Origin: Candidatus Shapirobacteria bacterium
Lineage (GTDB): Bacteria; Patescibacteriota; Microgenomatia; UBA12405
Direction of reading: 5' to 3'
Assembly (NCBI GenBank): GCA_022837635.1
Contig: JALHFY010000002.1
Coordinates: forward strand, 69,055 to 133,054
Length of the DNA stretch: 64,000 nucleotides
The first letter of the stretch is position 1, and each line of letters begins with the position of its first letter. A program made the translations under genes and the position numbers. The notes beneath the pieces were generated by a model. The model was not told where the DNA came from and did not search any database. It saw only the letters and a program-made list of their open reading frames with translations. Shown one piece after another: positions 37,461 through 63,427 of this stretch.

Positions 37461-37524
37461 GTGGAAAAGTGAGAGGAAAAATGTGGAAAAGAAAGTGGAA
37501 AAGTGAGAGGAAAAATGTGGAAAA
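37461..37524. promoter_or_regulatory. DnaA-box-like cluster between dnaA and dnaN (candidate oriC part)
   Basis: Two 31-bp direct repeats gtggaaaagtgagaggaaaaatgtggaaaag; TGTGGAAAA (1 mismatch to TGTGGATAA) at 37482 and 37516; ttgtggatt at 37377. Confidence 0.45.
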
Positions 37525-37526
37525 AA

Positions 37527-49191: not shown

Positions 49192-49605
49192 ATGAAATAT
49201 CAGTGTCCGGTGGAAATTAGAATGAGAAATGGAGCCATCAAATATTTAGAAGAATTAAAGAGATTAGCTAGGAATAATAGAAATAACCCAACTGCAGCAG
49301 AGAAAATGTTTTGGCAGGTATTGAGAAAATATCCATATACATTTTTGAGACAAAAACCTTTAGGTCGATTTATTGCTGATTTTTACTGTTCAAAATTATT
49401 ATTGATAATTGAGATAGATGGAGATTCTCATGATTTGAGAAAATATATGGACAAAGAAAGAGATGAATATTTTCAAATTAGGGGTATAAAAACAATCAGG
49501 ATTACAAATAAGCAGGTGTTAACTGGTGAAGCAGAGGGATTGATGAAAGATATTTTAAGGAGAAGGGAAAAAGAAGCGGAAAAATGGTTAAATACTTTCT
49601 TCTAA
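49192..49605 (+). CDS. DUF559/Vsr-like endonuclease-fold protein
   Basis: IADFYC...IIEIDGDSH motif typical of DUF559. Confidence 0.65.
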   Translation: MKYQCPVEIRMRNGAIKYLEELKRLARNNRNNPTAAEKMFWQVLRKYPYTFLRQKPLGRFIADFYCSKLLLIIEIDGDSHDLRKYMDKERDEYFQIRGIKTIRITNKQVLTGEAEGLMKDILRRREKEAEKWLNTFF

Positions 49606-51237: not shown

Positions 51238-51250
51238 GGATACATTATAG

Positions 51251-51327
51251 AGAAACTGGATACAAGAAACTAGAAACGAGAAAACAGAAACTAGATATAA
51301 GAAACAAAAAATTAGAAATAAGAATCA
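51251..51327. repeat. 7-bp minisatellite (AGAAACW)x11 in divergent promoter region
   Basis: agaaact ggataca agaaact agaaacg agaaaac agaaact agatata agaaaca aaaaatt agaaata agaatca. Confidence 0.85.
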
Positions 51328-51356
51328 AAAAGAGGGATTTTTGATATAATTGAGGC

Positions 51357-53405
51357 ATGAAAAGTGGTGAGTCTGTTGGAGTTAATCCTGAAAATAAAAG
51401 TAGGGTACCGGCTCTACTGCAACAAAAAGTAGATCAGATGTCTAAGAAAGTGTCTCAATTAATGAGTATGTCTGAGAGAGCAGTAGACAGAGAAAGTGTC
51501 TTCAATGGTATGAAGAGTATTGGGGGATATGGATTTGATAATAATATTGAGAACTTAATGTTGGTAGCCAACGATCCGAATAAAACACAGGATCAGAAAG
51601 AAAAGGCTGCTGAAGCGGAACAAATATTTGCTTTAGGAACAGCCAGAGCTTTAATAAATGGGGGGGTGGATGATAAAAAAGCTATTGGAGTGGGAAGTGT
51701 ATTAAAAATCGAAGAAAGATTACCACAGGAATTAAAAGGGCTTGGAAGAAATGTTAGAGATGCGATAATAGATGAACCTAAAATTACCGATATAGTTGAT
51801 TCCTTGGATGTGGTGCGGAAGAGAACATTAAAAGGTGGTGAATCCGGGCAAACAGTGTTGAGAAATCAAATAAAGGATGCACATGAAAAACTAATTTTGT
51901 TAAAGGTTGATAACACCAAAGAAGATCAGTTGGGAATGGTAATAGAATGGTTGGGGGATGAGATTGGTGAAGTAGACACTGAAAGAGGTGAACTAAAAGA
52001 ACTAATAACAAGTTTAATAAATCAAAAAGAACAAGGTATGCCTGCAGGTGAAGGGCTGAGTTTAGAGGAAAAGAAGCAAGAGCAATTAGCTTACGTAAGA
52101 GGAATTTTAGAAAAAATAGAAAGCTCAGAAAAAACAACTAGAGATATATATTTGGGACAATTTGCGGTTCAACTTGAAGAAGAGATCAGGTCTTTAGAGA
52201 CTCATCCCGAGGTAGCAGTAGAAGTCAGGTCTCGTTTAAAGCTCCATGATTGTTATGTGTTAATGAGAAAGGCAAGTGGATATATAGAACCACCTAAGAG
52301 CGGAGGAGATCCTGAATGTCCTACTGTAGGTGCAGCAGCTAACTTAGCAGCTGGATTGAACCATGCGTTAGACAGTGAGACAGTGGGTTTTTTCTTAAAA
52401 GGAGATTCTAATGGTATTCCTGTAGCTCAAGCATGGGATTTATATCAAAAAGTAAATATAGAATATTTTTCAATACTTAATGAAATGGGAATACCAACAA
52501 ACACCGAGGATTTAAAAGTTCTAGTGGATAACGATAGAGATTTGGGTACCATAGAGGCGAATTACTTGAGTGATGGAAGTTTATCAAGGAAACGGAAAGT
52601 AGATGAGTATATTATCAATAAGTTAACAGTTGAGGTTGGTTGTAATAAAGTAGATGCGAGCAAAGCATGGTCATTGGCTAAAAAATTGTCATTAGCAACA
52701 GGAGAAGATTCTGTGTTTAATGAATCTTTGGAGGGCAACGACGAAATGGCAGAAGATATGTATTTAAGAATTTATCGAGGTAAGCGTGATAAGGCAGGTC
52801 GACCACGTGGACCCCAAATAAATTTACCGCACATTATTGGTATTGGCAATTCCTTTTTAAGAAGATTATCGGGAGTACCTCTTTATGACAGAAATAACCC
52901 TCCGTATTTATTGAGTAAGGATGTGGTAGTAGAACCTGACCCAGAAAAAAAATTAGGGATCGAGGAAGGAAGTTATGTGTATCATTTTGGAGTATGGTGG
53001 TCTGGCAAAATTCATCCTTTAAGAAATTTATTATTGGATAGGCAACCTGATCCAAAGAAAATTACTAATATTGATTTTATGCAAACAGCCCAAGATTTTT
53101 TTGACAAAGCGGACCCAGATGGCAGTAAGTATTTAAGGTATTGGTGGGTGATGGGTGTTCTAGATATGGCTACGTCGGTTGGTGAATTAGGTTGGACACA
53201 GGCTGATATTTCTCGGTTTAGACAGTTTTTAACAGAAGTACCACTGTCTGATAACATGAAGCCTGGTAAATCAAAAACATTTTTAGAAAAAGCACATTGG
53301 GATCATGGAATAAAACAAGGCAGGTTTGTGAATAAAATGTTAATATTAGATCTGAAGAGGATAAGGAGAAATATGGTGTCAGGGGTAACTGGTGGACAAC
53401 AGTAA
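51357..53405 (+). CDS. Hypothetical large soluble protein
   Basis: ORF of 682 aa; no recognisable motif. Confidence 0.35.
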   Translation: MKSGESVGVNPENKSRVPALLQQKVDQMSKKVSQLMSMSERAVDRESVFNGMKSIGGYGFDNNIENLMLVANDPNKTQDQKEKAAEAEQIFALGTARALINGGVDDKKAIGVGSVLKIEERLPQELKGLGRNVRDAIIDEPKITDIVDSLDVVRKRTLKGGESGQTVLRNQIKDAHEKLILLKVDNTKEDQLGMVIEWLGDEIGEVDTERGELKELITSLINQKEQGMPAGEGLSLEEKKQEQLAYVRGILEKIESSEKTTRDIYLGQFAVQLEEEIRSLETHPEVAVEVRSRLKLHDCYVLMRKASGYIEPPKSGGDPECPTVGAAANLAAGLNHALDSETVGFFLKGDSNGIPVAQAWDLYQKVNIEYFSILNEMGIPTNTEDLKVLVDNDRDLGTIEANYLSDGSLSRKRKVDEYIINKLTVEVGCNKVDASKAWSLAKKLSLATGEDSVFNESLEGNDEMAEDMYLRIYRGKRDKAGRPRGPQINLPHIIGIGNSFLRRLSGVPLYDRNNPPYLLSKDVVVEPDPEKKLGIEEGSYVYHFGVWWSGKIHPLRNLLLDRQPDPKKITNIDFMQTAQDFFDKADPDGSKYLRYWWVMGVLDMATSVGELGWTQADISRFRQFLTEVPLSDNMKPGKSKTFLEKAHWDHGIKQGRFVNKMLILDLKRIRRNMVSGVTGGQQ

Positions 53406-53410
53406 AGTTA

Positions 53411-55141
53411 TTAGGTTGTGGGTGGTGGGTCGATGTTAGCACCTGAGTTTTCTGGAATAACCACTGCTTTATCTCCTTTACCGAATCGCTGAAGAACTGC
53501 TTGTCCAGTTTTGGTGCCAATTTGGACAACAGTATCTCCAAATTTCTTACCTGCAGACTCAGAAACACTTCTTCCCATTTTGGCAAACATAGTGTTGTTA
53601 AGACTTTCTCCAATGGCCTTACCAAAATCTGGAGCTTTCATGCTTTTAATTGTATCAGGAACTAATTCAGGAAGTTTGGATAAAAGAGCGAGGCCGGCCA
53701 TACCGATAGCGGCGGAAATGACTAGGGTAGGGGTGCCTAAAAGTTGGGAAACAGTACCGGTAGTAAGTGGTCCAGGTGTCCAGGCAGTAGCACTTCCACT
53801 ACTAATGACACCCCAGGTGAGAGAGTCGATAATTAGATTAAGAAGAACCAAGAAAATGCCAACTACCGGAAAAACGGCTATATTGGAAACAAGATCTAGA
53901 ATCCAGGTGTTAAAACCCATTTTAGAATTAGGAAAGGCGCCGGTGGCGATTTCTAAAGGGGCGAGAACAATTTTGAAGATGATAGTGACATAGTTCTTAA
54001 CTAGACCAAAAAAGAGTTTGATTAGCCAAATAACAACTAAAATAGTGAGAATCAAAGGAATGAGCATTCCGCCGACAAGACCACCACCAATAGCTCCAAC
54101 AGCTTGAGTGGCATTTCTTATGCCGATTTTGCTTAAAAAATTAATAAAAGTATTACCTGAGGTTAGGCTAGTACCGATAACACTACCGATGATATTGCCT
54201 AAAGTACCTCCAAGGAGCATTAACGAAAAGCCTCCAGGAACGGCTCGTTGAGTCAGATGTTGAATGGTGGGAATGTTGGGATTACTAAGATCGTCAAAAT
54301 TATAACTATAGCCACCAACATAAGAAGTGACGGAGGAGATAACTTGCTTAATAAAATCAATAATTTTGGTGATACCGTCACTATTGGCTCCTAGTTGAGA
54401 AATTAAATTAATTGCCCAAGAGTCGGAGAATAAAGCGCTGTCTAAACTGACACCTTTAACGGAAAAAAGCATCGCTACAACGATAGCCTGAATGATATTG
54501 GCTAAGTCGATAACAAGACCAGCAATAGCGTAGGAAAAGGTAACTAGAATTAAGGTGGTAATGATTTGAGGAACAGCACTTTGAATGGTAATAACTGCTT
54601 GTGGACTAACTTTGACCCTAAGAATAATCATAATTCCAATAATTAGGAAAATGATGGTGGAAAAAACGTAGACCATGTTTCTAAAACCCCTCCATAGAGG
54701 TAGGAGGAATTGAAGTCCTTGAAAACCAATACCTTGGGCATATGCTGGTTTACCTAAAAAATTATCTTTAACTTGGGCAATATATTCGATGCCTGAAGCT
54801 GGGGGAGTGTGTAATGAAGCTATCATAGTGTTGAGATTACCAACAGCACCTCCAGGAAAGTAATGAAAGGTGGTGGAGTTCTGGTCAGGTTCGAGCAATT
54901 CTTTTGGTATTTCGCCGATTAGACCGGTAAACAGAGAAATCATATTGCTGCTCATGGCTTCATTAGTCCAAGATTCTAGGCCAGTGTTATTTTTGATGGC
55001 GTCTTGTTTTTGAATAAAAAGTTGGCTGCTAGTGTTATCGGTGCTAGTGTCTGGTGATTGGGCTAAACTATTGACAGGGAAGAAAACGAAAAGAATGAAA
55101 AAAGTTGTGAGTAGAATTTTGGTAAAAAGGCTTTTTGCCAT
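53411..55141 (-). CDS. VirB6/TrbL-like polytopic membrane protein (T4SS channel component candidate)
   Basis: Signal peptide, then ~8 TM helices and a Gly-rich C-terminal region; adjacent to the pilin array. Confidence 0.4.
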   Translation of the reverse strand: MAKSLFTKILLTTFFILFVFFPVNSLAQSPDTSTDNTSSQLFIQKQDAIKNNTGLESWTNEAMSSNMISLFTGLIGEIPKELLEPDQNSTTFHYFPGGAVGNLNTMIASLHTPPASGIEYIAQVKDNFLGKPAYAQGIGFQGLQFLLPLWRGFRNMVYVFSTIIFLIIGIMIILRVKVSPQAVITIQSAVPQIITTLILVTFSYAIAGLVIDLANIIQAIVVAMLFSVKGVSLDSALFSDSWAINLISQLGANSDGITKIIDFIKQVISSVTSYVGGYSYNFDDLSNPNIPTIQHLTQRAVPGGFSLMLLGGTLGNIIGSVIGTSLTSGNTFINFLSKIGIRNATQAVGAIGGGLVGGMLIPLILTILVVIWLIKLFFGLVKNYVTIIFKIVLAPLEIATGAFPNSKMGFNTWILDLVSNIAVFPVVGIFLVLLNLIIDSLTWGVISSGSATAWTPGPLTTGTVSQLLGTPTLVISAAIGMAGLALLSKLPELVPDTIKSMKAPDFGKAIGESLNNTMFAKMGRSVSESAGKKFGDTVVQIGTKTGQAVLQRFGKGDKAVVIPENSGANIDPPPTT

Positions 55142-55160
55142 AGTTTATTGTAACAAAATA

Positions 55161-56609
55161 TTACCAAGATGCGGGGCGAAGTAAAGAGCGCATTTCTTGA
55201 TACAAAAGATCAGAACGGAAACCGGGATCAACGACATTAGCTTTATCGTTGGCAGGGGTTTTACTGGAAAAACTTTTAGTCAGTAATTGTTTTTTGTCTA
55301 GGGAATCTGAGGGAATCATATTGGAAAAGGCTTGTTCACTAATTTGAACATTTTCCACAATCTGATTATCGTAGGTACTAGTGGTAGGAATAGAGACGCT
55401 TTTACTAAAGTTTTCGCCAGCTAAAACTCGTTTAATTAAACCTTTAACGAAGGTGGCTAGATTTTTTCTTTGAGGTTTGTCTCGGGAAACGTATGGACTA
55501 ACTTTACTATCATTACAAATATCGGTATTATCAAGAGGTTTTTGTTGACTAGGGTTGACAAAACTGAGGGTGGTTGACTGAGGTGAATAGGCAGCGGCGG
55601 CATTGGGTAGGGTGCGGTTGTGAGTTTCGTCAACAGGATTGATAGGATGGTCATTGGCAGTGTCGTAACCATTATAATTAGTAACCACGACTCGACTATT
55701 GACGTTACCTTTGGGGATGTAATTGAGTTGTTTATAGAAAAGAAAATAATCCTCTTTTGGTAGAGGAACAAAGCTTTTGCCGCCAGAACGTTGTGAATAA
55801 CAGCCGTAGGTACCGCAAGAACCACTATAGTGACTGAGGACTGGGGTGAGAATTTTTTGAGGAAAGTTTTCGGGTGGAGAATCGGGGGTGGAATAGTAAA
55901 GCTTTTCATTTTGAAGTCCAAAAATAAGTTCACTGAGATAAACAGGTCGACAGGAGCTGGTTTTAGTTTCATCTTGAGTCATTTCCATACAAGTACCTTG
56001 GCAGTCCCAAGCGATTTGATAGTCTTGAGTGACAGTATCAAGTTGTTGACTGTTATTTAAGGACATGGCGGCTTGGGTAAGGAATTGACTGCGATAGTAA
56101 TTAATTTGGGTGGTGGGCAAGGAGCGCAAAGAAGCACTAGATCCAGTCATTTCGAGGCTAAGGAAGCTGTTTTTAGCCCTGGCTTCGGTACACTTGATGC
56201 TGCCTCTAGCAAAGAAAGATTGGAAGTTTCGGTAATATTCGTTGGAGAGGTTATTAAGATCAATTTGGCCATCTAAGTCTTGGGCATCGTAATCTTGGTA
56301 GATGTTTTCTGTGTATTTATTACCATTGACGTCAGTTTTTACAACTTCAGTTTTATGATCGTCGGCAGACCAACTTCTTCCGGCTTCACCATGACCACTA
56401 CAAGTGACTGTGTCTTCAGTCAAGGTGTTGGAATAAGAATCGTCGCTAGGGATTTCTGGGGCAATGGCTTGGTCGGGAGCTTTACGTTCAGTTTGATCTT
56501 TAATTTGTAGGGAAGGGAAGAGTTTTTGCCAAAAGCTAGCGGCATAAGCTGGAGAAGTAGTAAAAAAGAGAAAAAATAAAGTAGAAAATATAAAAATTAG
56601 TTTTTTCAC
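55161..56609 (-). CDS. Secreted Cys-rich protein (possible pilus-associated adhesin)
   Basis: Signal peptide MKKLIFIFSTLFFLFFTTSPAYA; about 12 Cys. Confidence 0.4.
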   Translation of the reverse strand: MKKLIFIFSTLFFLFFTTSPAYAASFWQKLFPSLQIKDQTERKAPDQAIAPEIPSDDSYSNTLTEDTVTCSGHGEAGRSWSADDHKTEVVKTDVNGNKYTENIYQDYDAQDLDGQIDLNNLSNEYYRNFQSFFARGSIKCTEARAKNSFLSLEMTGSSASLRSLPTTQINYYRSQFLTQAAMSLNNSQQLDTVTQDYQIAWDCQGTCMEMTQDETKTSSCRPVYLSELIFGLQNEKLYYSTPDSPPENFPQKILTPVLSHYSGSCGTYGCYSQRSGGKSFVPLPKEDYFLFYKQLNYIPKGNVNSRVVVTNYNGYDTANDHPINPVDETHNRTLPNAAAAYSPQSTTLSFVNPSQQKPLDNTDICNDSKVSPYVSRDKPQRKNLATFVKGLIKRVLAGENFSKSVSIPTTSTYDNQIVENVQISEQAFSNMIPSDSLDKKQLLTKSFSSKTPANDKANVVDPGFRSDLLYQEMRSLLRPASW

Positions 56610-56998
56610 GGATTCCCGGGGATTTGGAATATAGTAACGTTAACACCGGTAAATTTTTGAATGAAATTAAGAATTAGCCAGGAAGCAATGACACCAACTA
56701 GACCGATGATGGCCATAGTGAGGGTGGAAGAAGCGGAGGCTAGTTTTTTTTCATCACCACCACTAGTGAGGTATTTGAAACCACCGCTAATGAACATAAA
56801 GAAAAAAGCCAGACCGGCAATAACTACTATTATTTGGAGAATGTTGGCAAAAAGACATTCAAAACCTTGGATGGTAGCGACATCACCTTGGGTAACGCAG
56901 CGACCTGTCCAAGTGCCATCGGAAGCAACTTGAGCTAGAGCTGGATGCACAAATAAGAAACAAGAAACTAGAAACCAGAAACAAGAGAGTTTTTTCAT
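56606..56998 (-). CDS. VirB2/TrbC-like pilin paralogue 1
   Basis: Signal peptide; TM1; loop SGGDEKKLASASST; TM2 IIGLVGVIASWLIL. Start set at MKKLSCF. Confidence 0.55.
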   Translation of the reverse strand: MKKLSCFWFLVSCFLFVHPALAQVASDGTWTGRCVTQGDVATIQGFECLFANILQIIVVIAGLAFFFMFISGGFKYLTSGGDEKKLASASSTLTMAIIGLVGVIASWLILNFIQKFTGVNVTIFQIPGNP

Positions 56999-57021
56999 AA
57001 CTACATTATAGTATAAAGTCC

Positions 57022-57049
57022 AAAAAAAACCCCCTGCAGAGGCAGGGGG
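57022..57049 (-). terminator. Rho-independent terminator after pilin paralogue 2
   Basis: On the minus strand: CCCCCTGC-cucu-GCAGGGGG followed by U8. Confidence 0.8.
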
Positions 57050-57068
57050 TGTGAACTCTACCAAGAAT

Positions 57069-57410
57069 TTATTTGTTGAAGGTAGGAACAGAGATACCAC
57101 TTAAGAGAGTGATACCAAAGACGGTTTCAATCAATTTCATAATGGCAAAGGCGGCAAAAACGATAGCCAAGCCAATGAGAGCATTAGTGATCTGAGTACG
57201 GGCGGTAGCCACAGCTTTTTCATCACCACCGGCCATAACCCACTTGAGTCCGCCGAGAATTAACATAAAGAAGAATACCAGAGCCACAATTAACATAACT
57301 AAGGAAATGGCACCGGAAACGATACCACCGATAGTCATTTTAGTGACTTCTGAACCAAATTGATCTTTGGGGTTAAGTTCGATTACTTGTTTAGCAGCGA
57401 TAAGTTTCAT
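57069..57410 (-). CDS. VirB2/TrbC-like pilin paralogue 2 (followed by strong terminator; candidate major pilin)
   Basis: TM1 IGGIVSGAISLVMLIVALVFFFMLILGGL; loop GGDEKAVATARTQ; TM2 ALIGLAIVFAAFAI. Confidence 0.55.
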   Translation of the reverse strand: MKLIAAKQVIELNPKDQFGSEVTKMTIGGIVSGAISLVMLIVALVFFFMLILGGLKWVMAGGDEKAVATARTQITNALIGLAIVFAAFAIMKLIETVFGITLLSGISVPTFNK

Positions 57411-57461
57411 TTTTTTAGAGAATTAATAATTAATTAATGAAGTTTAACAATAAATTAAGAT

Positions 57462-57791
57462 TTAGGAAAGAGTGGGCCAGGTAAGTACTAATTTTTCTAG
57501 GTCTTGGATACCTAGAACGTAACCAATAAATTTAAGAATAGCAAAGACGGCAAAGACGATACCTAAGCCTAAAATAGCGTTAATCATTTCGGTTCGGGAG
57601 GTTTCGACGCGTTTAGGATCACCTTGGTTATTAATCATATGATAACCGGACATGATAAAGTGCCAAACGAACCAAATGACGGCAACAATAAAGAAAATAG
57701 AAAAAATTGCCTGAACGACACTGTTGGTATATCCAGTAGGATCATCTATTTGTTTTTCGCAGTTTGTGAGGATAGGGTTGCAGATAGCCAT
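57462..57791 (-). CDS. VirB2/TrbC-like pilin paralogue 3
   Basis: Same architecture (GDPKRVETSRTEMINAILGLGIVFAVFAIL). Confidence 0.5.
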   Translation of the reverse strand: MAICNPILTNCEKQIDDPTGYTNSVVQAIFSIFFIVAVIWFVWHFIMSGYHMINNQGDPKRVETSRTEMINAILGLGIVFAVFAILKFIGYVLGIQDLEKLVLTWPTLS

Positions 57792-57796
57792 TTTGG

Positions 57797-58144
57797 TTAA
57801 ATTTTAATACTTCTAAAGAAAGCTTCAAGATCAAAAGGATTGGAGAGACCAAGAAGTTTAGCCAAAAGAGCGGCTAAACCAGTAGCAATAACAACAATAA
57901 AAATACCTAAAATACCGTTAGTGAGTTTAGACCAACCTTCTTCGATTTTTTTAGGATCACCGTGGGCGGTCATCAAGCCATATCCAGCCAGGATTATTTG
58001 AATAGCAAACCAAATAACGGCAACAATGGTTAAAACTCCCATGACATTACTAATAAGTTTTTCTAGAGCGGTGGTGGCTTCAACACCATCACTTGGGTTG
58101 AGGCCGGGACCGTCTAATGAGAATTTTTCAGCAATAAGTTTCAT
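57797..58144 (-). CDS. VirB2/TrbC-like pilin paralogue 4
   Basis: Start set at MKLIAEKF (parallels paralogue 2 MKLIAAKQ); GDPKKIEEGWSKLTNGILGIFIVVIATG. Confidence 0.5.
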   Translation of the reverse strand: MKLIAEKFSLDGPGLNPSDGVEATTALEKLISNVMGVLTIVAVIWFAIQIILAGYGLMTAHGDPKKIEEGWSKLTNGILGIFIVVIATGLAALLAKLLGLSNPFDLEAFFRSIKI

Positions 58145-58145
58145 A

Positions 58146-58475
58146 TTATGGTTGAGTTTGTGGACCAGTAATCTCAGGATTAAGAATGTCAATGCCGAAG
58201 AGACGACCAACAACACCAGCGATAACCATAGCGGCGGAGACTATAAGGATGCCGACGAGACTTTGCCAAATTTTAGTCCAAGCAGCTTCGGCTTTTTTAG
58301 GATCGCCACTAGCATTGAGGTAGTCATAACCACCCATAATTAATTGAACGACAAGAATAATACCAGCGATAACACCAGCTAATTTTAAGAGGTTGCTGAA
58401 GAAGGTGAAGAAACCGCTACCAGCTACGCTGGGGTATTGAGTAGGGTTGTCGATGGTGCCAAAAATAGAAAGCAT
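58146..58475 (-). CDS. VirB2/TrbC-like pilin paralogue 5
   Basis: GDPKKAEAAWTKIWQSLVGILIVSAAMVIAG. Confidence 0.5.
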   Translation of the reverse strand: MLSIFGTIDNPTQYPSVAGSGFFTFFSNLLKLAGVIAGIILVVQLIMGGYDYLNASGDPKKAEAAWTKIWQSLVGILIVSAAMVIAGVVGRLFGIDILNPEITGPQTQP

Positions 58476-58478
58476 GGT

Positions 58479-58805
58479 TTATAGAATAGAGAGCCCGGTA
58501 AGGACTTCTATAATTTGAATTATAAAGTAACTAAGGAAAATTACCAAGAAGCCAATCAAGGAATTGGTAATCATGGATTTAGCAGTAGCAGCTTGTTTTT
58601 GGTCACTGGAACCAGCTGAGACTATCATCATAATTCCACCGGCAATAATAAGAATTAAAAAGATAATTCCGGCTAAGGTTAGGGAGTTTTTGACAATAAT
58701 GTTGACTAAAGTGGTTTCGTCGGGGTAGGTGTTGGAAATGGGTTTTCCGTTGTCGATAGGCAAATCACCGATGTTTACTTGGGAGATAAGTCGAGTTAAT
58801 TTCAT
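58479..58805 (-). CDS. VirB2/TrbC-like pilin paralogue 6
   Basis: Start set at MKLTRLI; SSDQKQAATAKSMITNSLIGFLVIFLSYFII. Confidence 0.5.
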   Translation of the reverse strand: MKLTRLISQVNIGDLPIDNGKPISNTYPDETTLVNIIVKNSLTLAGIIFLILIIAGGIMMIVSAGSSDQKQAATAKSMITNSLIGFLVIFLSYFIIQIIEVLTGLSIL

Positions 58806-58928
58806 ATTGATACCTAGATTATATAACAAAGATAGGAAATAATGGTGTTATAATACGCCACCTTATCAAGCTAGTGACTAGTTATTAGTAATTAGTTAAT
58901 AGTTTTATAATTAGATATTAAAACAGAA

Positions 58929-59750
58929 ATGAGAAAAGCTGCCATCTCTATTTTGTTGTTGGCATTGATGTTGATGTCCAACAGAGCAACTTTAGCTAGA
59001 AATAGATTAATTAGTCCCAGTCCAGAACCAACAGTATTACCAACGGCTACACCAGTACCTGAGTCGGTGAATATAACGGAAGCATACGATAAAAAATCAG
59101 AAAATATCAGCCCGTTATTGTCACTAGCGGTAGAGAAGGGAGTACCGGAAAATACGATAGTACTATTGTTATTATTGCCATTGGTGGCGACTCTAGTATC
59201 TTTTTTGCATTATGTGGTAGGAGTATCCGGTTATGGGATTTTTATGCCGACGATGGTATCGGTGGCGATGTTGGCCACCGGTTTAAGAACAGGTTTAGCC
59301 TTGTTTGTGGTAATTTTAGGATCGGGACTGATGAGTAACAGGTTGTTGAAGAGATTAAAATTACATTTTTGGCCAGCTCGGACAATTACTTTATTGATGA
59401 TTGCTTTAACGACTTTGATAACTATGTCAATAGCGGCTAGTTTAGGTATATTAGAAGTGGGTAAAATTTCTATTTTTCCGATGTTATTTATGATTTTATT
59501 GACAGAAGAATTTATCAGAACTCAGTTGGCTAAAAGCAAAAAGGAAGCAATGAGATTGACTTGGGGAACTTTGTTGTTGGCAACTATTGGTACCTTGACG
59601 ATGAGGATTCAAATGCTTCAGGATTTTGTGTTGAGGTATCCAGGTTGGGTAATACTATTAGTAATAGTTATTAACGTGATGGTGGGAAGTTATAGTGGAA
59701 TTAGAATGACAGAGATAAAGAGGTTTAAGGGAGCAATTAGAAAAAAGTAA
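58929..59750 (+). CDS. Polytopic (about 7 TM) membrane protein, first gene of the ATP-grasp module
   Basis: Signal/anchor, then about 7 TM helices; precedes the ATP-grasp/retropepsin fusion by 32 bp. Confidence 0.4.
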   Translation: MRKAAISILLLALMLMSNRATLARNRLISPSPEPTVLPTATPVPESVNITEAYDKKSENISPLLSLAVEKGVPENTIVLLLLLPLVATLVSFLHYVVGVSGYGIFMPTMVSVAMLATGLRTGLALFVVILGSGLMSNRLLKRLKLHFWPARTITLLMIALTTLITMSIAASLGILEVGKISIFPMLFMILLTEEFIRTQLAKSKKEAMRLTWGTLLLATIGTLTMRIQMLQDFVLRYPGWVILLVIVINVMVGSYSGIRMTEIKRFKGAIRKK

Positions 59751-59782
59751 TTAGTTAATAGTAAATAGTTAGTAGTAAAATA

Positions 59783-61165
59783 ATGTTTAAGTTGAATCTA
59801 AGAGACTATCGGCAGTTTTTGACAAAAAACGAGAGGAATAAGGTGTATTTGCGTAAAAATAGTGCTGAAGGACGAGCAATTGCTGATAGTAAATTTAAGA
59901 CTAAAAATAGATTGATTAAGGCAGGAGTGGCGGTGCCGAAGTTGATAGCTAGGTTTAAGGATGATGAGGAGTTGATGGCTTTTAATTGGAAGCAAGTGAC
60001 AGCTAATTTTGTGATCAAACCGGTGACTGGTTATGGAGGAGAGGGAATTTTGATTTTTAGAAAAAAAGTGGGTGATGATAAATATCAACTAATGAACGGA
60101 AAGACAATGACTTTGGAAGAAATCATTCAGCATTGTCAGGAGATATTGCAAGGAAAATATAGTCTTCATAGTAGTCGTGATCATGTGATTATTGAAGAAA
60201 GGGTGAAGATTCATCCAATGTTTTTGGCGTTGACCAAGGCAGGAACGCCGGATGTGAGAGTGATAGTGGCCAATAAAGTACCGGTGATGGCCATGTTAAG
60301 AATTCCAACTGAAAGAAGTGGAGGCAAGGCTAATTTACAGCAGGGAGCATATGGGTTGGGAATAGATTTGGCAACTGGAATTACTACTTTTGGGATTGAA
60401 GGTAAGGGAGATGAGGTAAAAAGGATTTATGATTTTGGTAAGAAAAAAAATATCAAAGTTAATGGGATTAAGATTCCATTTTGGAAAGAAATATTGGAAA
60501 CTGCCGTAAAATCACAAGCGGCGATACCTGAGTTGGGGTTTTTGGGAGTGGATGTGGTTTTGGATAAAGATGAGGGACCAAAGGTGTTGGAAGTGAATGC
60601 TAGACCAGGATTGTCGATACAGATTTGTAATAAGGCAGGATTAAAAAGAAGAATTGAGAAAGTGGAGGATATTACAGTTAGAAGCGAAGAACATGCCATT
60701 TCTTTGGCTAAATATTTGTTTGGGGAAAAGTTTGCGGATAAGGTAGCAGAAAAAGAAAAGGTAAAAATGATTCAACCATTGGAAATTATCAAGGTTAAAA
60801 TCCCTAAGGGATTTGTGCCAGAGATAGATAAAGACAAGATTTTGAAGTTAAAGAAACATCGGGTGGTAGAAGTGAGGGCCAAGGTAGATACTGGAGCTTT
60901 CAGGAGTTCGATTGATAGAGATTTTGCTGTTAAAATAGGATTATTGTCAGCGGATAAAGTATTGTATTATCGGCATTATCGATCGAGTTTAGGACAAAAT
61001 AAAGACAGGCCGGTGATAGGAATTACTTTTTGGTTGCAAGGGAAAAAAGTAGTGACGGCGGTGAGTGTAGCTAATAGGCGAAAGTTGAGAACAAAATTTT
61101 TATTAGGTAGAAAAGACCTGGAAGGGTTTTTAATTTCAGCTAAAAAAGGAGGTAAAAATGACTAA
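59783..61165 (+). CDS. ATP-grasp (alpha-L-glutamate-ligase-like) fused to retropepsin-like aspartic protease domain (PF05618-like)
   Basis: ATP-grasp core (FVIKP..GYGGEGI ... LEVNARPG); C-terminal VRAKVDTGAFRSSID with a D-T-G signature. Confidence 0.55.
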   Translation: MFKLNLRDYRQFLTKNERNKVYLRKNSAEGRAIADSKFKTKNRLIKAGVAVPKLIARFKDDEELMAFNWKQVTANFVIKPVTGYGGEGILIFRKKVGDDKYQLMNGKTMTLEEIIQHCQEILQGKYSLHSSRDHVIIEERVKIHPMFLALTKAGTPDVRVIVANKVPVMAMLRIPTERSGGKANLQQGAYGLGIDLATGITTFGIEGKGDEVKRIYDFGKKKNIKVNGIKIPFWKEILETAVKSQAAIPELGFLGVDVVLDKDEGPKVLEVNARPGLSIQICNKAGLKRRIEKVEDITVRSEEHAISLAKYLFGEKFADKVAEKEKVKMIQPLEIIKVKIPKGFVPEIDKDKILKLKKHRVVEVRAKVDTGAFRSSIDRDFAVKIGLLSADKVLYYRHYRSSLGQNKDRPVIGITFWLQGKKVVTAVSVANRRKLRTKFLLGRKDLEGFLISAKKGGKND

Positions 61166-62141
61166 AATAGCAGTCTTTTTTGGAGGTAAAATCAGTCGAC
61201 ACTTAGTGTTGGTGCGAAAAGCGGCAAAAAAGTTAGGAGTAGAACTGGATTTAATTTCGTATAATAAGGTTTTTTTTGATACTAAAAGTGGGCGGGTAGA
61301 ACTAAAAGGCAAAGATGCTGCGGATTATGATGTACTTTTTTTTAGAACTACGGGTAAACATTGGGAAGAGGTAGATTTAATATTGGAGAGTATTAAAGAA
61401 ACTGGAAAAAGGCCAGTGATTGTAGATCCGATAGTAGAACATGGAAAACCGAGTTTTGCTAAAAAGGCGTGGCAAATGTTGAGATTGACGGAGGCGGGAA
61501 TAGAAGTACCGAGAACTATTTATGGATCATTGTGGACGTTGTATGAGTGTATGTTAAATTTAAACTCTCGAAATGATTTTTGTGCCTCCTGTGAATGTGT
61601 CACCACGTTCAACGGAGTCAAAAAATCATCTTCTTCGAGTTTAAATTTAAATTTCCCAGTTATAGTTAAGGGTAGTGGGGGGAATAGAGGCGAGAGGGTG
61701 TTTAAGGCTAATAATTTAGAGGAGTTGGAAAAGTTGGTGAGGGAGTTGCGAAAATCGGAGACTGAGGAGGGGAGGCGGTATATGCTCCAGGAGTATATTG
61801 AAAATGATGGTGATTATCGGGTTTTGGTGATAGGTGATAAGGCTCTGGGGGCGATGAAACGCAGTAGTCAGAGTCGAAATGAATTTAGAAACAATTATAG
61901 TGCTGGAGGTAAAGTAGAAGTGGCGCAATTACCTCAGGAGATTTATGATTTAGCAGTAAGGGCGGCTAAAAGTTGTGGAATAGCGATTGCTGGGGTGGAC
62001 GTGGCTTTTCGAGACAAGGAAAGAAAGAGACCGGTGGTGTGGGAGGTGAACAAAGGCCCACAATTCAAAGGTTTTATGAAAGCGACGGGGATAGATGCCC
62101 CGGCTGAAATTGTTAAATATTTAGTATCTATTAAAAAATAA
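61158..62141 (+). CDS. RimK-family ATP-grasp ligase
   Basis: YRVLVIGDKALGAMKRSS...RNNYSAGG...GVDVAF; typical RimK. Confidence 0.7.
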   Translation: MTKIAVFFGGKISRHLVLVRKAAKKLGVELDLISYNKVFFDTKSGRVELKGKDAADYDVLFFRTTGKHWEEVDLILESIKETGKRPVIVDPIVEHGKPSFAKKAWQMLRLTEAGIEVPRTIYGSLWTLYECMLNLNSRNDFCASCECVTTFNGVKKSSSSSLNLNFPVIVKGSGGNRGERVFKANNLEELEKLVRELRKSETEEGRRYMLQEYIENDGDYRVLVIGDKALGAMKRSSQSRNEFRNNYSAGGKVEVAQLPQEIYDLAVRAAKSCGIAIAGVDVAFRDKERKRPVVWEVNKGPQFKGFMKATGIDAPAEIVKYLVSIKK

Positions 62142-62142
62142 C

Positions 62143-62262
62143 CAATAACCAAAAAACAATTTCCAAACAAATTACAAATAACAAATCTCAAACTCTTGGT
62201 AATTTGGAATTTGAAAAATTGGAAATTGTTTGTATCTTGTGATTTTGGTTATTGGAATTTAT
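62143..62262. repeat. Intergenic repeat related to 41044-41196
   Basis: caaatctcaaactcttggtaatttgg ... ttgtttgtatcttgtgattttggttattggaattt. Confidence 0.8.
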
Positions 62263-63172
62263 AAAACACAATATGTCACATAAAAGAATAATTACTTTTA
62301 CAATGTCATTGAGACAGAGTCAGTTTGAAGTGAACAGATTGGTGACGGAAGCGGAGGCGATGGGGATTGAGGTTGATCGAGCTTTGTATAGAGAGTTGTC
62401 ATTTGATTTGAAAAATGGGGAAAGTAAGGTGTTTATTCGAGGTCAGGAGGTGCGACCGGAGGAGGTTTATGGATTATGGTTTAGGGTGGCGGGGACAAAA
62501 AGTGGTAAATATACTGAAGCTAGAAACTTAGCAATTCGGATTTTGGAAGCAAAGGGAGTGAAGTGTGTTAATAGTCGGACTTATTTGGCTTGGACTCGGA
62601 TGGGAAAAATTGCTCAACATGGGGTGTTTTTGCAAAACAGTATTCCTATAGTACCAACGAGAATTTTTTATACCAAAGATCAGATTTTAGAAGTGGACGA
62701 TTGGGAGTTTCCGGTAATTGCCAAGCATGAACGGGGTTTTCAAGGAAAATCGGTAAGGAAGTTTGAAAATAAGGAAGAGTTAGAAGTTTTTGTAGAGAGA
62801 ATTAATGAAAAGAATTTAGGTATGTTTTTGTGGCAAAAAACTTTACCGACTCGCTGGGATTTAAGAATTATTGTGGTTGATGGAGAGGCAATTGGGGCGA
62901 TGAAGAGGTCGGCAAATGATGGTGAATTTAGAAGCAATTTTTCTTTGGGAGGAGCGGTGGAACATTGGCAAATGGACAGTGAAGAAAAAGAATTAGCAGA
63001 AAAAGCGGCTAGAGTGTGTGGTTTGGATTATGGAGGGGTGGATATTATGAAAGACGGTGAGGGTAAAAATTATATTTTGGAAGTGAATCGTCAATGTCAG
63101 TTTCAAGGTTTTGAGAAAGCGACTGGTATTAATGTAGCTAAAAAAGTGGTGGAAATGATGATAAAAGATTAG
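62252..63172 (+). CDS. RimK-family ATP-grasp ligase (second paralogue)
   Basis: LRIIVVDGEAIGAMKRSANDGEFRSNFSLGG...GVDIM. Confidence 0.7.
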   Translation: MEFIKHNMSHKRIITFTMSLRQSQFEVNRLVTEAEAMGIEVDRALYRELSFDLKNGESKVFIRGQEVRPEEVYGLWFRVAGTKSGKYTEARNLAIRILEAKGVKCVNSRTYLAWTRMGKIAQHGVFLQNSIPIVPTRIFYTKDQILEVDDWEFPVIAKHERGFQGKSVRKFENKEELEVFVERINEKNLGMFLWQKTLPTRWDLRIIVVDGEAIGAMKRSANDGEFRSNFSLGGAVEHWQMDSEEKELAEKAARVCGLDYGGVDIMKDGEGKNYILEVNRQCQFQGFEKATGINVAKKVVEMMIKD

Positions 63173-63201: not shown

Positions 63202-63275
63202 GGGTGATTAGCTCAGTTGGTTAGAGCACCGTCCTGATAAGACGGGGGTCAATAGTTCGAGTCTATTATCACCCA
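63202..63275 (+). tRNA. tRNA-Ile (anticodon GAU)
   Basis: GGGTGATTAGCTCAGTTGGTTAGAGC; anticodon stem-loop CCGTC-CTGATAA-GACGG; T-arm AATAGTTCGAGTCTATT; acceptor ATCACCC+A. Confidence 0.85.
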
Positions 63276-63427
63276 CACAGTGTAAAATAAGATATGCAAG
63301 AGAAACTAGAAAAGAGATGTAATTGGCTAAGGGTGGTGGGAGTAATTGGTGCTGGGATTTTGATTGTCTTTGGCAGTTTTGCCAATGCTTGGAGAACTCT
63401 GAAAATGACAATAGAGAAACTACGTAG

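What the first reader, a model, noticed from the sequence alone, without database searches (positions are those of the whole stretch)
58929..63172. 7TM membrane protein, ATP-grasp-retropepsin fusion and two RimK ligases adjacent to the pilin array
A polytopic membrane protein is followed by a fusion of an alpha-L-glutamate-ligase-like ATP-grasp domain with a retropepsin-like (D-T-G) PF05618-type protease domain. Two RimK-family ligases follow. Neighbourhoods combining 7TM, ATP-grasp and retropepsin-like (putative zinc-protease) domains are a known but functionally uncharacterised peptide-ligation/processing system. Two extra RimK paralogues, placed directly beside six pilin genes, raise the possibility of peptide-tail (poly-Glu-type) modification of pilins or a secreted substrate.
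Basis: partly seen in the sequence, partly recalled or inferred. Interest (0 to 1): 0.6.

Follow-up and report, generated by a model that had tools for sequence, protein, structure and literature searches.

The report
Rlo-like peptide ligase–protease membrane operon
This four-gene operon of an ultra-small (Shapirobacteria, CPR) bacterium pairs a seven-helix membrane protein with three ATP-dependent peptide ligases, one fused to a retrovirus-type protease; it is a compact variant of the recently described Pseudomonas Rlo/Rim systems, and its position beside the pilin genes is a habit of one lineage, not evidence that pilins are its target.

Summary
Window 58929-63172 (+) holds a 7TM_transglut membrane protein, an ATPgrasp_ST ligase fused to a PF05618 (RimB/RloA-type) retropepsin with an intact K-V-D-T-G-A site, and two RimK-family ligases. 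Six T4SS_pilin genes lie divergently upstream.

The closest characterised systems are P. aeruginosa RloABC and RimB/RimK. This version differs in three ways: the membrane protein lacks the transglutaminase ectodomain, the protease is fused and cytoplasmic rather than secreted, and one to three RimK paralogues belong to the module.

Across 171 related loci, 7TM plus fusion is near-universal (139/140) and a RimK-like gene usually follows (131/142). Pilins are adjacent in 73/73 loci at ≥60% fusion identity, 2/4 at 50-60% and 0/31 below 50%. The module therefore stands alone, and the pilin link is clade-specific synteny in an origin-proximal T4SS region.

One new pattern emerged: where a MATCAP/DUF1704 metallopeptidase is present, the retropepsin has almost always lost its canonical DTG. 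This suggests the two peptidases substitute for each other.

The most likely mechanism is membrane-docked synthesis and trimming of an acidic (poly-Glu-like) peptide. I rate it a new variant of a known kind, of moderate interest.

The parts
58846..58862 (+). Conserved extended -10 promoter plus discriminator of the operon, TGnTATAATACG(C/G)CAC. TATAAT lies at 58849-58854.
   Evidence: The core TATAATAC is present in 56 of 67 orthologous pilin-7TM intergenic regions, 14-135 nt upstream of the annotated 7TM start in all but one locus. The motif occurs once in the 64-kb window, against 0.08 expected.
58872..58920 (+). 5' leader made of 7-nt tandem repeats (TAGTTAN; UAG-N4 array).
   Evidence: TRF finds period 7 with 6.3 copies. 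TAG-N4 x4 matches 3 times in the window, all in this operon, against 0.01 expected. No Rfam family matches. Function is unknown.
58929..59750 (+). RloB-like 7TM membrane protein without the transglutaminase ectodomain. It has a signal/anchor helix, a ~50-aa Pro/Thr-rich outside linker, 7 TM helices and a basic cytoplasmic tail.
   Evidence: PF14402 at 1.6e-31; RloB NF052267 matched over model positions 312-506 of 508 only. The AF2 model has pLDDT 76.5, TM helices from residue 74, and residues 17-45 disordered. No significant PDB fold neighbour was found. Topology is inferred from the positive-inside rule and from 7TM-ATP-grasp fusions such as P0235.
59738..59779 (+). Spacer between 7TM and the fusion gene, again made of 7-nt TAGTNAN repeats.
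59783..61165 (+). Fusion protein. It combines an RloC-type ATP-grasp ligase (residues ~12-310, 59816-60712) with a RimB/RloA-type retropepsin domain (residues ~355-455, 60845-61147). The catalytic D369-T-G-A lies at 60887-60898.
   Evidence: PF14397 at 1.8e-59, TIGR02291 at 1e-75, PF05618 at 28.8 bits. Invariant residues include K79, D257, E270, N272, R274, D369-A372, R409, R432 and LLGRKDL 440-446. A profile of the C-terminal domain hits RloA structures 9G59 (5e-9) and 9G58 (2.6e-7), and 2PMA (1.2e-5). Foldseek places the ligase half nearest to ArgX/LysX, RimK and cyanophycin synthetase. It is the most conserved gene of the block, at median 70% identity.
61158..62141 (+). RimK-family ATP-grasp ligase 'RimKa'. 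It overlaps the fusion gene by 8 nt and carries a lineage-specific ~35-aa insertion.
   Evidence: PF08443 at 3.2e-30; TIGR00768 at 140.8 bits (cutoff 143.4). The motifs VKGSGG, EFRNN..GG, GVD and EVN are present.
62252..63172 (+). RimK-family ATP-grasp ligase 'RimKb' (probable start ATG 62273).
   Evidence: PF08443 at 1.8e-34; TIGR00768 at 152.6 bits, above the cutoff. It matches E. coli RimK structures 5ZCT/4IWX at 3e-21 with the FRSN..GG, GVD and EVN motifs aligned. It is 30% identical to RimKa.
63202..63276 (+). tRNA-Ile(GAT), marking the right-hand end of the conserved block.
   Evidence: Genes to the right of RimKb differ between genomes.
56606..58829 (-). Context only: an array of six VirB2/TrbC-like T4SS pilin genes, transcribed divergently from the operon.
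   Evidence: PF18895 hits for all six. Adjacency is clade-restricted. VirB2 arrays near dnaA are common in Microgenomatia (PMC12102498).

Best explanation
This is a self-contained, membrane-docked peptide ligation and trimming module. It is the CPR (Patescibacteria) version of the Rlo/Rim systems.

**How it most likely works:**
1. Three cytoplasmic ATP-grasp ligases build a short acidic alpha-peptide, most likely Glu-rich, either free or on an unidentified acceptor. They are the RloC-type domain of the fusion protein plus the RimKa and RimKb paralogues.
2. The retropepsin domain fused to the first ligase must dimerise to be active and has a strongly basic substrate channel. It trims or releases that chain, as RimB does for RimK products and RloA does for poly-Glu.
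3. The 7TM protein holds the ligase at the inner face of the membrane. It hands the product to the envelope or couples the activity to it.

**What is shown:** domain identities, intact catalytic residues, the conserved operon, and independence from the pilin genes.

**What is inferred:** the nature of the product, the direction of transfer and the physiological role. The role is probably envelope or osmotic homeostasis, by analogy with Pseudomonas.

The position next to the T4SS pilin array reflects conserved origin-proximal synteny in Shapirobacteria and close relatives.
For: **Domains and catalytic residues**
- Family assignments and invariant catalytic residues.
- The retropepsin domain is homologous to the RloA crystal structures. 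9G58 and 9G59 are the RloA entries of PMC12239564.
- K367, two residues before D369, together with R409 and R432, is basic in 100% of 31 diverse sequences. Median net charge of the domain is +11.
- The equivalent RloA residues K46, R114 and R137 contact poly-Glu. The R114A and R137A mutants give the largest drop in poly-Glu cleavage in vitro and fail to rescue the rloA1-3 mutant.
- There is no signal peptide or TM segment in the fusion. The protease is therefore cytoplasmic, like RimB.

**Operon conservation**

| Fusion identity to window | 7TM directly upstream | RimK-like gene downstream |
|---|---|---|
| ≥60% | 93/93 | 80/80 |
| 50-60% | 5/5 | 7/9 |
| <50% | 41/42 | 44/53 |

**Fusions elsewhere that tie the parts together**
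- 7TM + ATP-grasp (P0235).
- ATP-grasp + retropepsin + a second ATP-grasp (P0168, L179).
- ATP-grasp + retropepsin + MATCAP (P0132).

**A hydrolase appears to be required**
- Representatives: canonical D[TS]G is intact in 40/42 without MATCAP, but in only 4/26 with a fused or adjacent MATCAP (Fisher p = 9e-12).
- Loci: 137/137 intact without MATCAP versus 1/5 with it (p = 3e-7).

**Other support**
- In P. aeruginosa, deleting rloB or rloC suppresses the defects of the protease-less mutant. This fits a ligase and membrane protein that make a product the protease must remove.
- The fusion is the slowest-evolving gene in the block, at median 70% identity.
- The operon has its own conserved promoter.
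- Pilins are absent from 31/31 distant loci.
Against: - No product or substrate is identified. Nothing in the sequence proves Glu specificity for any of the three ligases.
- The fusion scores below the curated TIGR02291 cutoff (254.7 vs 314.2). RimKa and RimKb score far below the S6-Glu ligase equivalog cutoff (67 and 72 vs 331).
- The 7TM fold has no solved relative, so an export or anchoring role is a guess.
- The AF2 model of the retropepsin half has low confidence, pLDDT about 50-60.
- In Pseudomonas the protease acts outside the cytoplasm. The analogy with Rlo physiology may therefore not transfer.
- Some relatives carry sugar-related partners instead: a YdjC fusion, a GNAT gene, or PBP1A next door. 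These hint at a non-peptide acceptor.
- Within the Shapirobacteria-type clade the pilin junction is never broken (73/73). One relative has two pilin genes directly after RimK.
Confidence: 0.55

Rival explanations
1. Pilin or T4SS modification. The ligases add (poly)Glu or another peptide tail to the VirB2-like pilins or another T4SS component encoded next door, and the protease edits that tail.
For: - The divergent pilin array is adjacent in 73/73 loci of the ≥60% identity clade, while the right-hand junction varies.
- The neighbourhood survives an inversion of the pilin block in L092 and L099.
- L092/L093 carry two further pilin genes 24 nt downstream of RimK on the same strand.
- The two promoters lie back to back within about 30 bp.
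Against: - Pilins are adjacent in 0/31 loci below 50% identity and in only 2/4 at 50-60%, although 7TM, fusion and RimK persist there.
- The pilin C-termini (…SIL, …TQP, …IKI, …TLS, …FNK, …GNP) are neither acidic nor conserved.
- In VirB2-family pilins both termini are extracytoplasmic (family knowledge). Only the short GD(P/E)KK loop could meet a cytoplasmic ligase.
- VirB2 arrays near dnaA are a general Microgenomatia feature.
- The variable right flank sits next to a tRNA gene; tRNA genes are known integration hotspots (general knowledge, not tested here).
Confidence: 0.1
2. Ribosomal protein S6 (RpsF) glutamylation, as in RimK/RimB. RimKa and RimKb extend the S6 C-terminus, and the fused retropepsin acts as RimB to tune translation.
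For: - RimKa and RimKb fall in the RimK subfamily (TIGR00768). RimKb matches E. coli RimK structures at 3e-21.
- The protease is cytoplasmic, like RimB.
- rpsF lies 2-3 kb upstream in two related loci, L120 and L169.
Against: - The ligases are almost always encoded with a 7TM membrane protein (139/140 loci), which the Rim system lacks.
- Scores against the S6-Glu ligase equivalog are 67 and 72 bits, against a cutoff of 331.
- The two CPR S6 proteins found end in …LLISIT and …KNKRRGD, not in Glu-Glu.
- rpsF is absent from the other ~170 loci and from the window.
Confidence: 0.12
3. Envelope glycan or peptidoglycan-linked peptide. The ligases attach amino acids to an amino sugar, cell-wall precursor or lipid-linked intermediate that the 7TM protein binds or flips, and the protease matures it.
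For: - The Pfam family is named 'sugar-transfer associated'.
- Relatives show a YdjC deacetylase fusion (P0128), an adjacent GNAT (L178), and PBP1A next to the module in L088-L090.
- Rlo mutants have cell-shape and beta-lactam phenotypes.
Against: - These partners are sporadic: PBP1A appears in only 3 loci of two organisms among ~170, and none is in the window.
- The protease's invariant basic channel matches poly-Glu recognition in RloA.
- The nearest structural relatives of the ligase act on protein or peptide carboxylates.
Confidence: 0.15

Closest known systems
Pseudomonas aeruginosa RloABC (Lormand et al. 2025, mBio, PMC12239564)
   Same: - It has the same three domain families: a 7TM of the RloB/PF14402 type, a RimK-related ATP-grasp (RloC), and a PF05618 retropepsin with DTG and a basic, poly-Glu-binding channel.
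- The genes are co-transcribed.
- Genetics there place ligase and membrane protein upstream of the protease.
   Different: - The membrane protein here lacks the inactive transglutaminase ectodomain. A ~50-aa Pro/Thr linker takes its place.
- The protease is fused to the C-terminus of the ligase and has no signal peptide, so it is cytoplasmic rather than secreted.
- One to three extra RimK paralogues are part of the operon.
- The host is a reduced-genome CPR bacterium; by family knowledge these have a single membrane and therefore no periplasm.
- According to that paper, RloB is 96% proteobacterial.
RimK/RimB (with RimA) ribosomal protein S6 glutamylation system of Pseudomonas and E. coli
   Same: RimKa and RimKb belong to the RimK subfamily. 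A cytoplasmic retropepsin is physically associated with an ATP-grasp ligase, just as RimB binds RimK and cleaves poly-Glu tails.
   Different: - The ligase fused to the protease is the RloC/TIGR02291 type, not RimK.
- A 7TM partner is always present.
- There is no RimA.
- There is no evidence for an S6 substrate.
- The equivalog score cutoffs are not met.
ATP-grasp + DUF1704/MATCAP + 7TM-transglutaminase neighbourhoods (TIGR02291/TIGR02421 association; Iyer, Abhiman, Burroughs & Aravind 2009, recalled from memory, paper not held)
   Same: The ligase family and the 7TM partner are the same. Distant CPR relatives of this locus carry MATCAP, either fused or adjacent.
   Different: The window has no MATCAP and keeps an active-looking retropepsin. 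Here the two peptidases appear as alternatives to each other.
Tubulin tyrosination/glutamylation cycle (TTL/TTLL ligases versus MATCAP/VASH/CCP peptidases)
   Same: The logic matches: an ATP-grasp ligase adds C-terminal or branch amino acids and a dedicated peptidase removes them. The MATCAP family is shared with relatives of this locus.
   Different: This is an analogy only. TTL Pfam hits are faint (E 0.006), there is no tubulin-like substrate, and the system is membrane-associated.

Membership tests
Rlo system (RloA/RloB/RloC) | RloB: 7TM domain of the PF14402 type | tested here: met
   PF14402 at E 1.6e-31; NF052267 RloB aligned over model positions 312-506 of 508.
Rlo system (RloA/RloB/RloC) | RloB: periplasmic inactive transglutaminase domain N-terminal to the 7TM | tested here: not met
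   Only ~50 residues precede TM1, and they are Pro/Thr-rich and disordered. The NF052267 score is 76.7 bits against a cutoff of 900.
Rlo system (RloA/RloB/RloC) | RloC: cytoplasmic RimK-related ATP-grasp with intact ATP/Mg site | tested here: met
   PF14397 at 201.7 bits (gathering score 31.4). K79, D257, E270 and N272 are invariant. TIGR02291 scores 254.7, below its 314.2 cutoff. That RloC itself belongs to TIGR02291 is recalled from memory and was not tested.
Rlo system (RloA/RloB/RloC) | RloA: stand-alone secreted retropepsin with an N-terminal signal peptide | tested here: not met
   The domain is fused to the C-terminus of the ligase, and no hydrophobic segment lies between them.
Rlo system (RloA/RloB/RloC) | Retropepsin active site (DTG) and basic residues that bind poly-Glu | tested here: met
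   D369-T-G-A, K367, R409 and R432 are invariant. The domain profile matches 9G59 at 5e-9. Equivalence of R409 and R432 to RloA R114 and R137 is inferred from spacing.
Rlo system (RloA/RloB/RloC) | Role in hypo-osmotic tolerance and envelope integrity; poly-Glu cleavage activity | not testable with these tools
   Needs biochemistry or genetics.
RimK (S6--L-glutamate ligase) / RimB | Membership of the RimK subfamily (TIGR00768) | tested here: inconclusive
   RimKb scores 152.6 bits, above the 143.4 cutoff. RimKa scores 140.8, just below it.
RimK (S6--L-glutamate ligase) / RimB | Equivalog of E. coli RimK (PRK10446) | tested here: not met
   66.9 and 72.3 bits against a cutoff of 331.
RimK (S6--L-glutamate ligase) / RimB | S6 substrate with a C-terminal Glu-Glu | tested here: inconclusive
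   rpsF is not in the window. The two S6 proteins found in related loci lack a Glu tail.
VirB2/TrbC-like T4SS pilin array (context) | PF18895/PF04956 match with two TM helices and a GD(P/E)KK loop | tested here: met
   Five of six genes score above the 26.6 gathering cutoff and one scores 26.0. A VirB4-like ATPase, a PrgI/VirB3-like protein and an M23 hydrolase lie at 27.5-34.9 kb.
ATP-grasp + MATCAP (DUF1704) variant | MATCAP metallopeptidase fused to or adjacent to the ligase | tested here: not met
   There is no MATCAP in the window operon. It is present only in relatives, mostly with a degenerate retropepsin.

The most novel reading that the evidence does not exclude
In the Shapirobacteria lineage the Rlo-like module has been recruited to the T4SS. 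The ligases would glutamylate the cytoplasmic loop, or a pre-insertion terminus, of the VirB2-like pilins or another secretion component, with the fused protease resetting the mark. That would be the first ATP-grasp 'peptide code' on a bacterial secretion pilus. The never-broken junction in that clade (73/73) and the two pilin genes placed directly behind RimK in L092/L093 are what keep this reading alive.
Probability: 0.08. Interest if true: 0.8.

Novelty: new variant of a known kind. Interest (0 to 1): 0.4.

Why it matters
**Why the locus matters.** The Rlo system was only named in 2025, and neither its product nor the role of its membrane protein is known. That paper reports RloB as 96% proteobacterial.

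This locus shows a streamlined version of the system. It has a bare 7TM, a ligase and protease in one polypeptide, and accessory RimK ligases. The fusion protein has thousands of detectable homologues (5,508 at E ≤ 1e-5). The close ones are named Microgenomates (Shapirobacteria, Woesebacteria), and one more distant fusion comes from a Parcubacteria-group organism (Jacksonbacteria).

The fusion protein evolves about as slowly as FtsH, although that comparison rests on a single FtsH orthologue. These are genomes that have discarded most non-essential functions, which argues for an important conserved role.

**Experimental handle.** All catalytic parts are cytoplasmic and fused, so the product could be reconstituted in vitro from two or three soluble proteins.

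**New constraint on function.** Active retropepsin and MATCAP metallopeptidase behave as alternatives. Whatever the ligases make must also be cut.

**Correction.** The work removes an attractive but weakly founded idea, that of pilin poly-glutamylation.

Tried and rejected
- **PDB sequence search with the single fusion protein:** no hit. A profile of the whole protein gave only weak hits. Only a profile of the C-terminal domain from 31 diverse sequences reached the RloA structures.
- **AF2 model of the fusion:** the ligase half is good and the retropepsin half poor. It was therefore used only for the ligase fold search.
- **Iyer et al. 2009 paper:** not held. Searches for '7TM_transglut', 'DUF1704', MATCAP + ATP-grasp, and RimK + Patescibacteria found nothing relevant.
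- **rpsF search:** found near the module in only two loci.
- **Small substrate ORF or known RNA element in the operon's spacers:** none found.
- **p482, p576 and p682, the proteins encoded beyond the pilin array:** no Pfam or NCBIfam family. A VirB6 identity for p576 remains a guess.
- **First two scripted attempts to read the DTG column in the representatives:** both had mapping errors. Only one search is used.
- **Test of whether 7-nt repeats prefer 5' regions:** no clear preference.

Full report
**1. What is there**

The + strand of window 58929-63172 carries four closely packed genes.

- **Gene 1** (58929-59750, 273 aa) is a PF14402 '7TM_transglut' protein (E 1.6e-31). Against NCBIfam it matches only the C-terminal 7TM part (model positions 312-506 of 508) of RloB, the 'osmotic stress tolerance membrane protein'.
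- **Gene 2** (59783-61165, 460 aa) is a fusion.
  - Residues ~12-310 match PF14397 ATPgrasp_ST (1.8e-59) and TIGR02291 'alpha-L-glutamate ligase-like protein' (1e-75).
  - The C-terminal ~100 residues match PF05618 at 28.8 bits (gathering score 27) and RimB (NF052261, 3.5e-4). K-V-D-T-G-A lies at 60881-60898.
- **Genes 3 and 4** (61158-62141, 327 aa; 62252-63172, 306 aa, probably starting at ATG 62273) are RimK-subfamily ATP-grasp ligases. They are 30% identical to each other.

Gene 3 overlaps gene 2 by 8 nt. tRNA-Ile at 63202-63276 follows gene 4.

Divergently upstream, six genes at 56606-58829 all match PF18895 T4SS_pilin, the VirB2/TrbC-like family.

**2. Organism and wider setting**

The closest genome record is a Candidatus Shapirobacteria MAG, with 97% identity for the fusion protein (L007). 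Named homologues are from Shapirobacteria, Woesebacteria and Microgenomates, all within the CPR/Patescibacteria.

The window spans the replication origin region. It holds dnaA, dnaN, yidC and jag at 36-41 kb and FtsH at 47-49 kb. It also holds the T4SS core at 27.5-34.9 kb: a PrgI/VirB3-like protein, a VirB4-like ATPase and a large M23 hydrolase.

A 2025 survey reports that Patescibacteria T4SS genes often sit near dnaA. It also reports that arrays of 2-11 VirB2-like pilin genes are especially common in Microgenomatia (PMC12102498). The pilin array is thus an expected feature of this genomic neighbourhood.

**3. Are the enzymes intact?**

*The fusion's ligase domain.* In an alignment of 20 fusion orthologues (69-95% identity), the ATP-grasp Lys in 'VIKP' (K79) is invariant. 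So are the Gly-rich loop, D257, E270, N272 and R274. A profile alignment places these on the Mg-ATP ligands of D-Ala-D-Ala ligase.

Foldseek with the AF2 model places the ligase half nearest to ArgX/LysX, RimK, cyanophycin synthetase and PsnB. These are ligases that act on protein or peptide carboxylates.

*The RimK paralogues.* RimKb aligns to E. coli RimK structures (3e-21) with the FRSN…GG, GVD and EVN motifs conserved. RimKa carries the same motifs.

*The retropepsin domain.*
- D369-T-G-A and the retropepsin-typical LLGR(K/R)DL are invariant. They remain so in 31 sequences down to ~32% domain identity.
- A profile of that domain hits 9G59 (5e-9), 9G58 (2.6e-7) and 2PMA (1.2e-5), then ApRick and Ddi1 retropepsins.
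- 9G58 and 9G59 are the RloA crystal structures of Lormand et al. 2025.
- K367, R409 and R432 are basic in every sequence, and the domain has a median net charge of +11.
- In RloA, K46 (two residues before the catalytic D48), R114 and R137 contact poly-Glu. R114A and R137A give the largest drop in poly-Glu cleavage in vitro and fail to rescue the rloA1-3 mutant. The spacing supports R409 ≈ R114 and R432 ≈ R137. This equivalence is an inference.

The fusion has no signal peptide or hydrophobic segment. The protease must therefore work in the cytoplasm, as RimB does and unlike the secreted RloA.

**4. The membrane protein**

An AF2 model (pLDDT 76.5) shows an N-terminal signal/anchor helix and a disordered Pro/Thr-rich stretch (residues 17-45). 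Seven TM helices follow from residue 74, and the tail is basic.

Positive charges cluster in the TM3-4 and TM5-6 loops and in the tail. This gives an N-out, C-in topology, which is an inference. It agrees with natural fusions in which the ATP-grasp follows TM7 directly (P0235).

The ~250-aa inactive transglutaminase ectodomain of RloB is absent. No solved structure resembles the 7TM bundle; the best Foldseek E-value was 0.55.

**5. Conservation and gene context**

The fusion has more than 5,500 detectable homologues and 361 cluster representatives at E < 1e-30. I collected 171 loci and annotated them with HMMs built from the window's proteins. The loci came from:
- 80 species genomes;
- 80 metagenome contigs seeded on a 55%-identity relative;
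- individual look-ups.

Some genome and metagenome loci are the same contig.

| Fusion identity to window | 7TM directly upstream | RimK-like gene downstream | Pilin genes adjacent |
|---|---|---|---|
| ≥60% | 93/93 | 80/80 | 73/73 |
| 50-60% | 5/5 | 7/9 | 2/4 |
| <50% | 41/42 | 44/53 | 0/31 |

The number of extra RimK-like genes is 1-2 in the close clade and 0-3 elsewhere.

Distant contexts differ widely:
- UvrC … 7TM, fusion, MATCAP, RimK, TruB (L087);
- YebC, RuvC, 7TM, fusion, PBP1A (L088);
- YebC, RuvC, PKD-7TM, fusion-MATCAP, three ATP-grasps and a second MATCAP (L090);
- RuvC, GalT, 7TM, fusion-ATP-grasp, two RimKs, RuvAB (L179);
- PKD-7TM, fusion, GNAT, in Jacksonbacteria, a Parcubacteria-group lineage (L178).

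The functional unit is therefore 7TM + fusion + a variable set of RimK-like ligases. It is found well beyond the lineage that has pilins next door.

Within the block, the fusion is the most conserved protein. Median identity to the window is 70%, against 52% for the 7TM, 61% for the RimKs, 47-61% for the pilins and 41% for p576.

**6. The pilin question**

*In favour of a link:*
- The junction is never broken in the close clade, while the right flank varies.
- In L092 and L099 the whole pilin…p682 segment is inverted yet still adjacent.
- In L092/L093 two extra pilin genes follow RimK by 24 nt on the same strand.

*Against a link:*
- The association vanishes outside that clade, and in L100 at 55% identity.
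- The operon has its own promoter. The core TATAATAC occurs in 56 of 67 orthologous intergenic regions, and the full TGnTATAATACG(C/G)CAC motif occurs once in the window.
- The variable right flank adjoins a tRNA gene; tRNA genes are known integration hotspots (general knowledge, not tested here).
- The pilin C-termini are neither acidic nor conserved.
- In VirB2-family pilins both termini face outwards (family knowledge).

I conclude that adjacency is inherited synteny. Co-regulation through the back-to-back promoters is possible but undemonstrated. I give the pilin-modification idea about 0.1.

**7. The S6 question**

rpsF is not in the window. It lies near the module in only two loci, and those S6 proteins end in …LLISIT and …KNKRRGD rather than Glu-Glu. 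RimKa and RimKb score 67 and 72 bits against the S6-Glu ligase equivalog, whose cutoff is 331. An S6 role cannot be excluded for this genome, but it does not explain the obligatory 7TM partner.

**8. A new pattern: interchangeable peptidases**

Among the loci, the five with a stand-alone MATCAP (DUF1704) gene after the fusion are L087, L097, L173, L174 and L177. These are exactly the five in which the retropepsin motif reads NTG or ATG.

I then examined the 84 of the 150 50%-identity representatives that carry a detectable retropepsin domain:

| Group | Canonical D[TS]G intact | Degenerate | Unalignable at motif | No retropepsin hit |
|---|---|---|---|---|
| No fused MATCAP | 40 | 6 (4 belong to the clade with an adjacent MATCAP) | 8 | 52 (outside the 84) |
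| Fused MATCAP | 4 | 18 | 8 | 14 (outside the 84) |

Fisher tests give p = 9e-12 for the representatives and p = 3e-7 for the loci.

Counts are of clusters, not of independent events. Still, the pattern indicates that a hydrolase is a required partner of the ligase and that either peptidase can fill the role. The window belongs to the 'active retropepsin, no MATCAP' type.

**9. Mechanism**

The shown parts are three intact ATP-grasp ligases of peptide-forming subfamilies, an intact cytoplasmic retropepsin with a poly-anion-binding channel, and a constant 7TM partner.

Adding the Pseudomonas genetics gives the most economical model. Loss of rloB or rloC fully rescues growth of the protease-less mutant under hypo-osmotic stress and partially rescues its other defects. 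RloA and RimB cleave poly-Glu. So:
1. The ligases assemble a Glu-rich alpha-peptide at the membrane.
2. The dimeric protease domain limits or releases it.
3. The 7TM protein couples this to the envelope.

The product's identity and the 7TM's role are inferred. Overall confidence is 0.55.

Sporadic sugar-related partners keep a glycan or cell-wall acceptor alive as a rival at 0.15. These are the YdjC fusion, the GNAT gene and the neighbouring PBP1A.

**10. Comparison and novelty**

By membership tests the locus shares with Rlo the 7TM family, the ligase type and the protease family with its poly-Glu residues. It fails on the transglutaminase domain and on a secreted, stand-alone protease. It shares RimB-like protease placement and the RimK subfamily with the Rim system, but not the equivalog scores or a demonstrated S6 substrate.

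It is best filed as a new variant of a known kind: a hybrid of Rlo and Rim logic, widespread in CPR. Databases already annotate the domains, and the neighbourhood type was described bioinformatically (Iyer et al. 2009, recalled from memory). What this analysis adds:
- the CPR-wide distribution and strong conservation;
- the integral RimK paralogues;
- the retropepsin/MATCAP alternation;
- the demotion of the pilin link.

**11. Verdict**

The feature is real and correctly described. Interest is 0.4.

Noticed in passing
window 58846-58862 (+); orthologous positions in L007-L086: A highly conserved extended -10 promoter with a fixed downstream block, TGnTATAATACG(C/G)CAC, drives the 7TM operon. 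Its TATAATAC core is present in 56 of 67 orthologous intergenic regions whose surrounding sequence is otherwise unalignable, and the full motif occurs only once in the 64-kb window. A minus-strand -10-like element (58819-58828) facing the pilin array lies ~25 bp away, giving back-to-back promoters.
   Followed up: partly
window 58872-58920, 59738-59779, 62137-62186: The operon's leader and both intercistronic spacers consist of 7-nt tandem repeats. In the first two they form UAG-N4 arrays (TAG-N4 x4: 3 matches, all here, against 0.01 expected). Orthologous leaders in other species also carry 7-8-nt repeats, but with different units (CAATCTT, TAGATCG, AAAGTTT, TCGATNN). This is reminiscent of HutP/TRAP-type triplet-repeat RNA sites. 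No Rfam family matches, and the function is unknown.
   Followed up: partly
whole window and loci L009-L086 (e.g. window 51251-51328, AGAAAC[TA] x11; 24379-24407; 23398-23429; 56951-56986): Heptanucleotide tandem repeats are a genome-wide habit of this clade. Of 344 short tandem repeats with ≥3 copies in 1.07 Mb, 201 have period 7. Of 177 intergenic ones, 112 have period 7, roughly 7-10 times denser than in coding sequence. They show no clear preference for 5' over 3' intergenic regions.
   Followed up: partly
loci L087, L097, L173, L174, L177, L090; representatives P0121-P0270: The retropepsin domain of the fusion has lost its catalytic Asp (NTG, ATG, DTS, DPG and similar) almost exactly where a MATCAP/DUF1704 metallopeptidase is fused or adjacent. 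The inactive domain is nevertheless retained, perhaps as a dimerisation module.
   Followed up: yes
window 49588-56609: Beyond the pilin array lies a co-conserved set. It comprises a secreted, highly variable protein (55161-56609; 240-1093 aa in relatives), a conserved polytopic membrane protein (53411-55141; a VirB6 candidate, but with no family hit), a variable 682-aa protein (51357-53405) and a DUF6909 protein (49588-51237, PF21850 at E 4e-154).
   Followed up: partly
window 27565-34851 and 36135-38888: The T4SS core lies beside dnaN/dnaA, about 22-29 kb (start to start) from the pilin array on the other side of the origin. It comprises a PrgI/VirB3-like protein, a VirB4-like ATPase (TraG P-loop/AAA_10) and a 1085-aa protein with an M23 peptidase domain. 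This split, origin-proximal layout matches that reported for Microgenomatia.
   Followed up: partly
L092 12246-12901 and L093 2644-3299: In one 55%-identity relative, two T4SS_pilin genes sit directly after RimK on the same strand with a 24-nt gap. In the same locus the main pilin block is inverted relative to the window.
   Followed up: partly
record titles of L008, L009, L012, L013, L016 and others: Many MAG records that carry this unmistakably Shapirobacteria-type synteny are titled 'uncultured Gammaproteobacteria bacterium' or 'Candidatus Methanoperedens sp.'. These labels are evidently wrong or placeholders.
   Followed up: no
window 61548-61652 (RimKa residues ~131-165): RimKa carries a lineage-specific ~35-residue insertion, Cys- and Ser-rich (…NDFCASCECVTTFNGVKKSSSSSLNLN…), just before the ATP-binding Lys strand. 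It is not conserved in orthologues.
   Followed up: partly
window 49192-49605: A DUF559 (Vsr-like endonuclease fold) gene is inserted between FtsH and DUF6909. In several relatives these two genes, or FtsH and p682, are direct neighbours.
   Followed up: no
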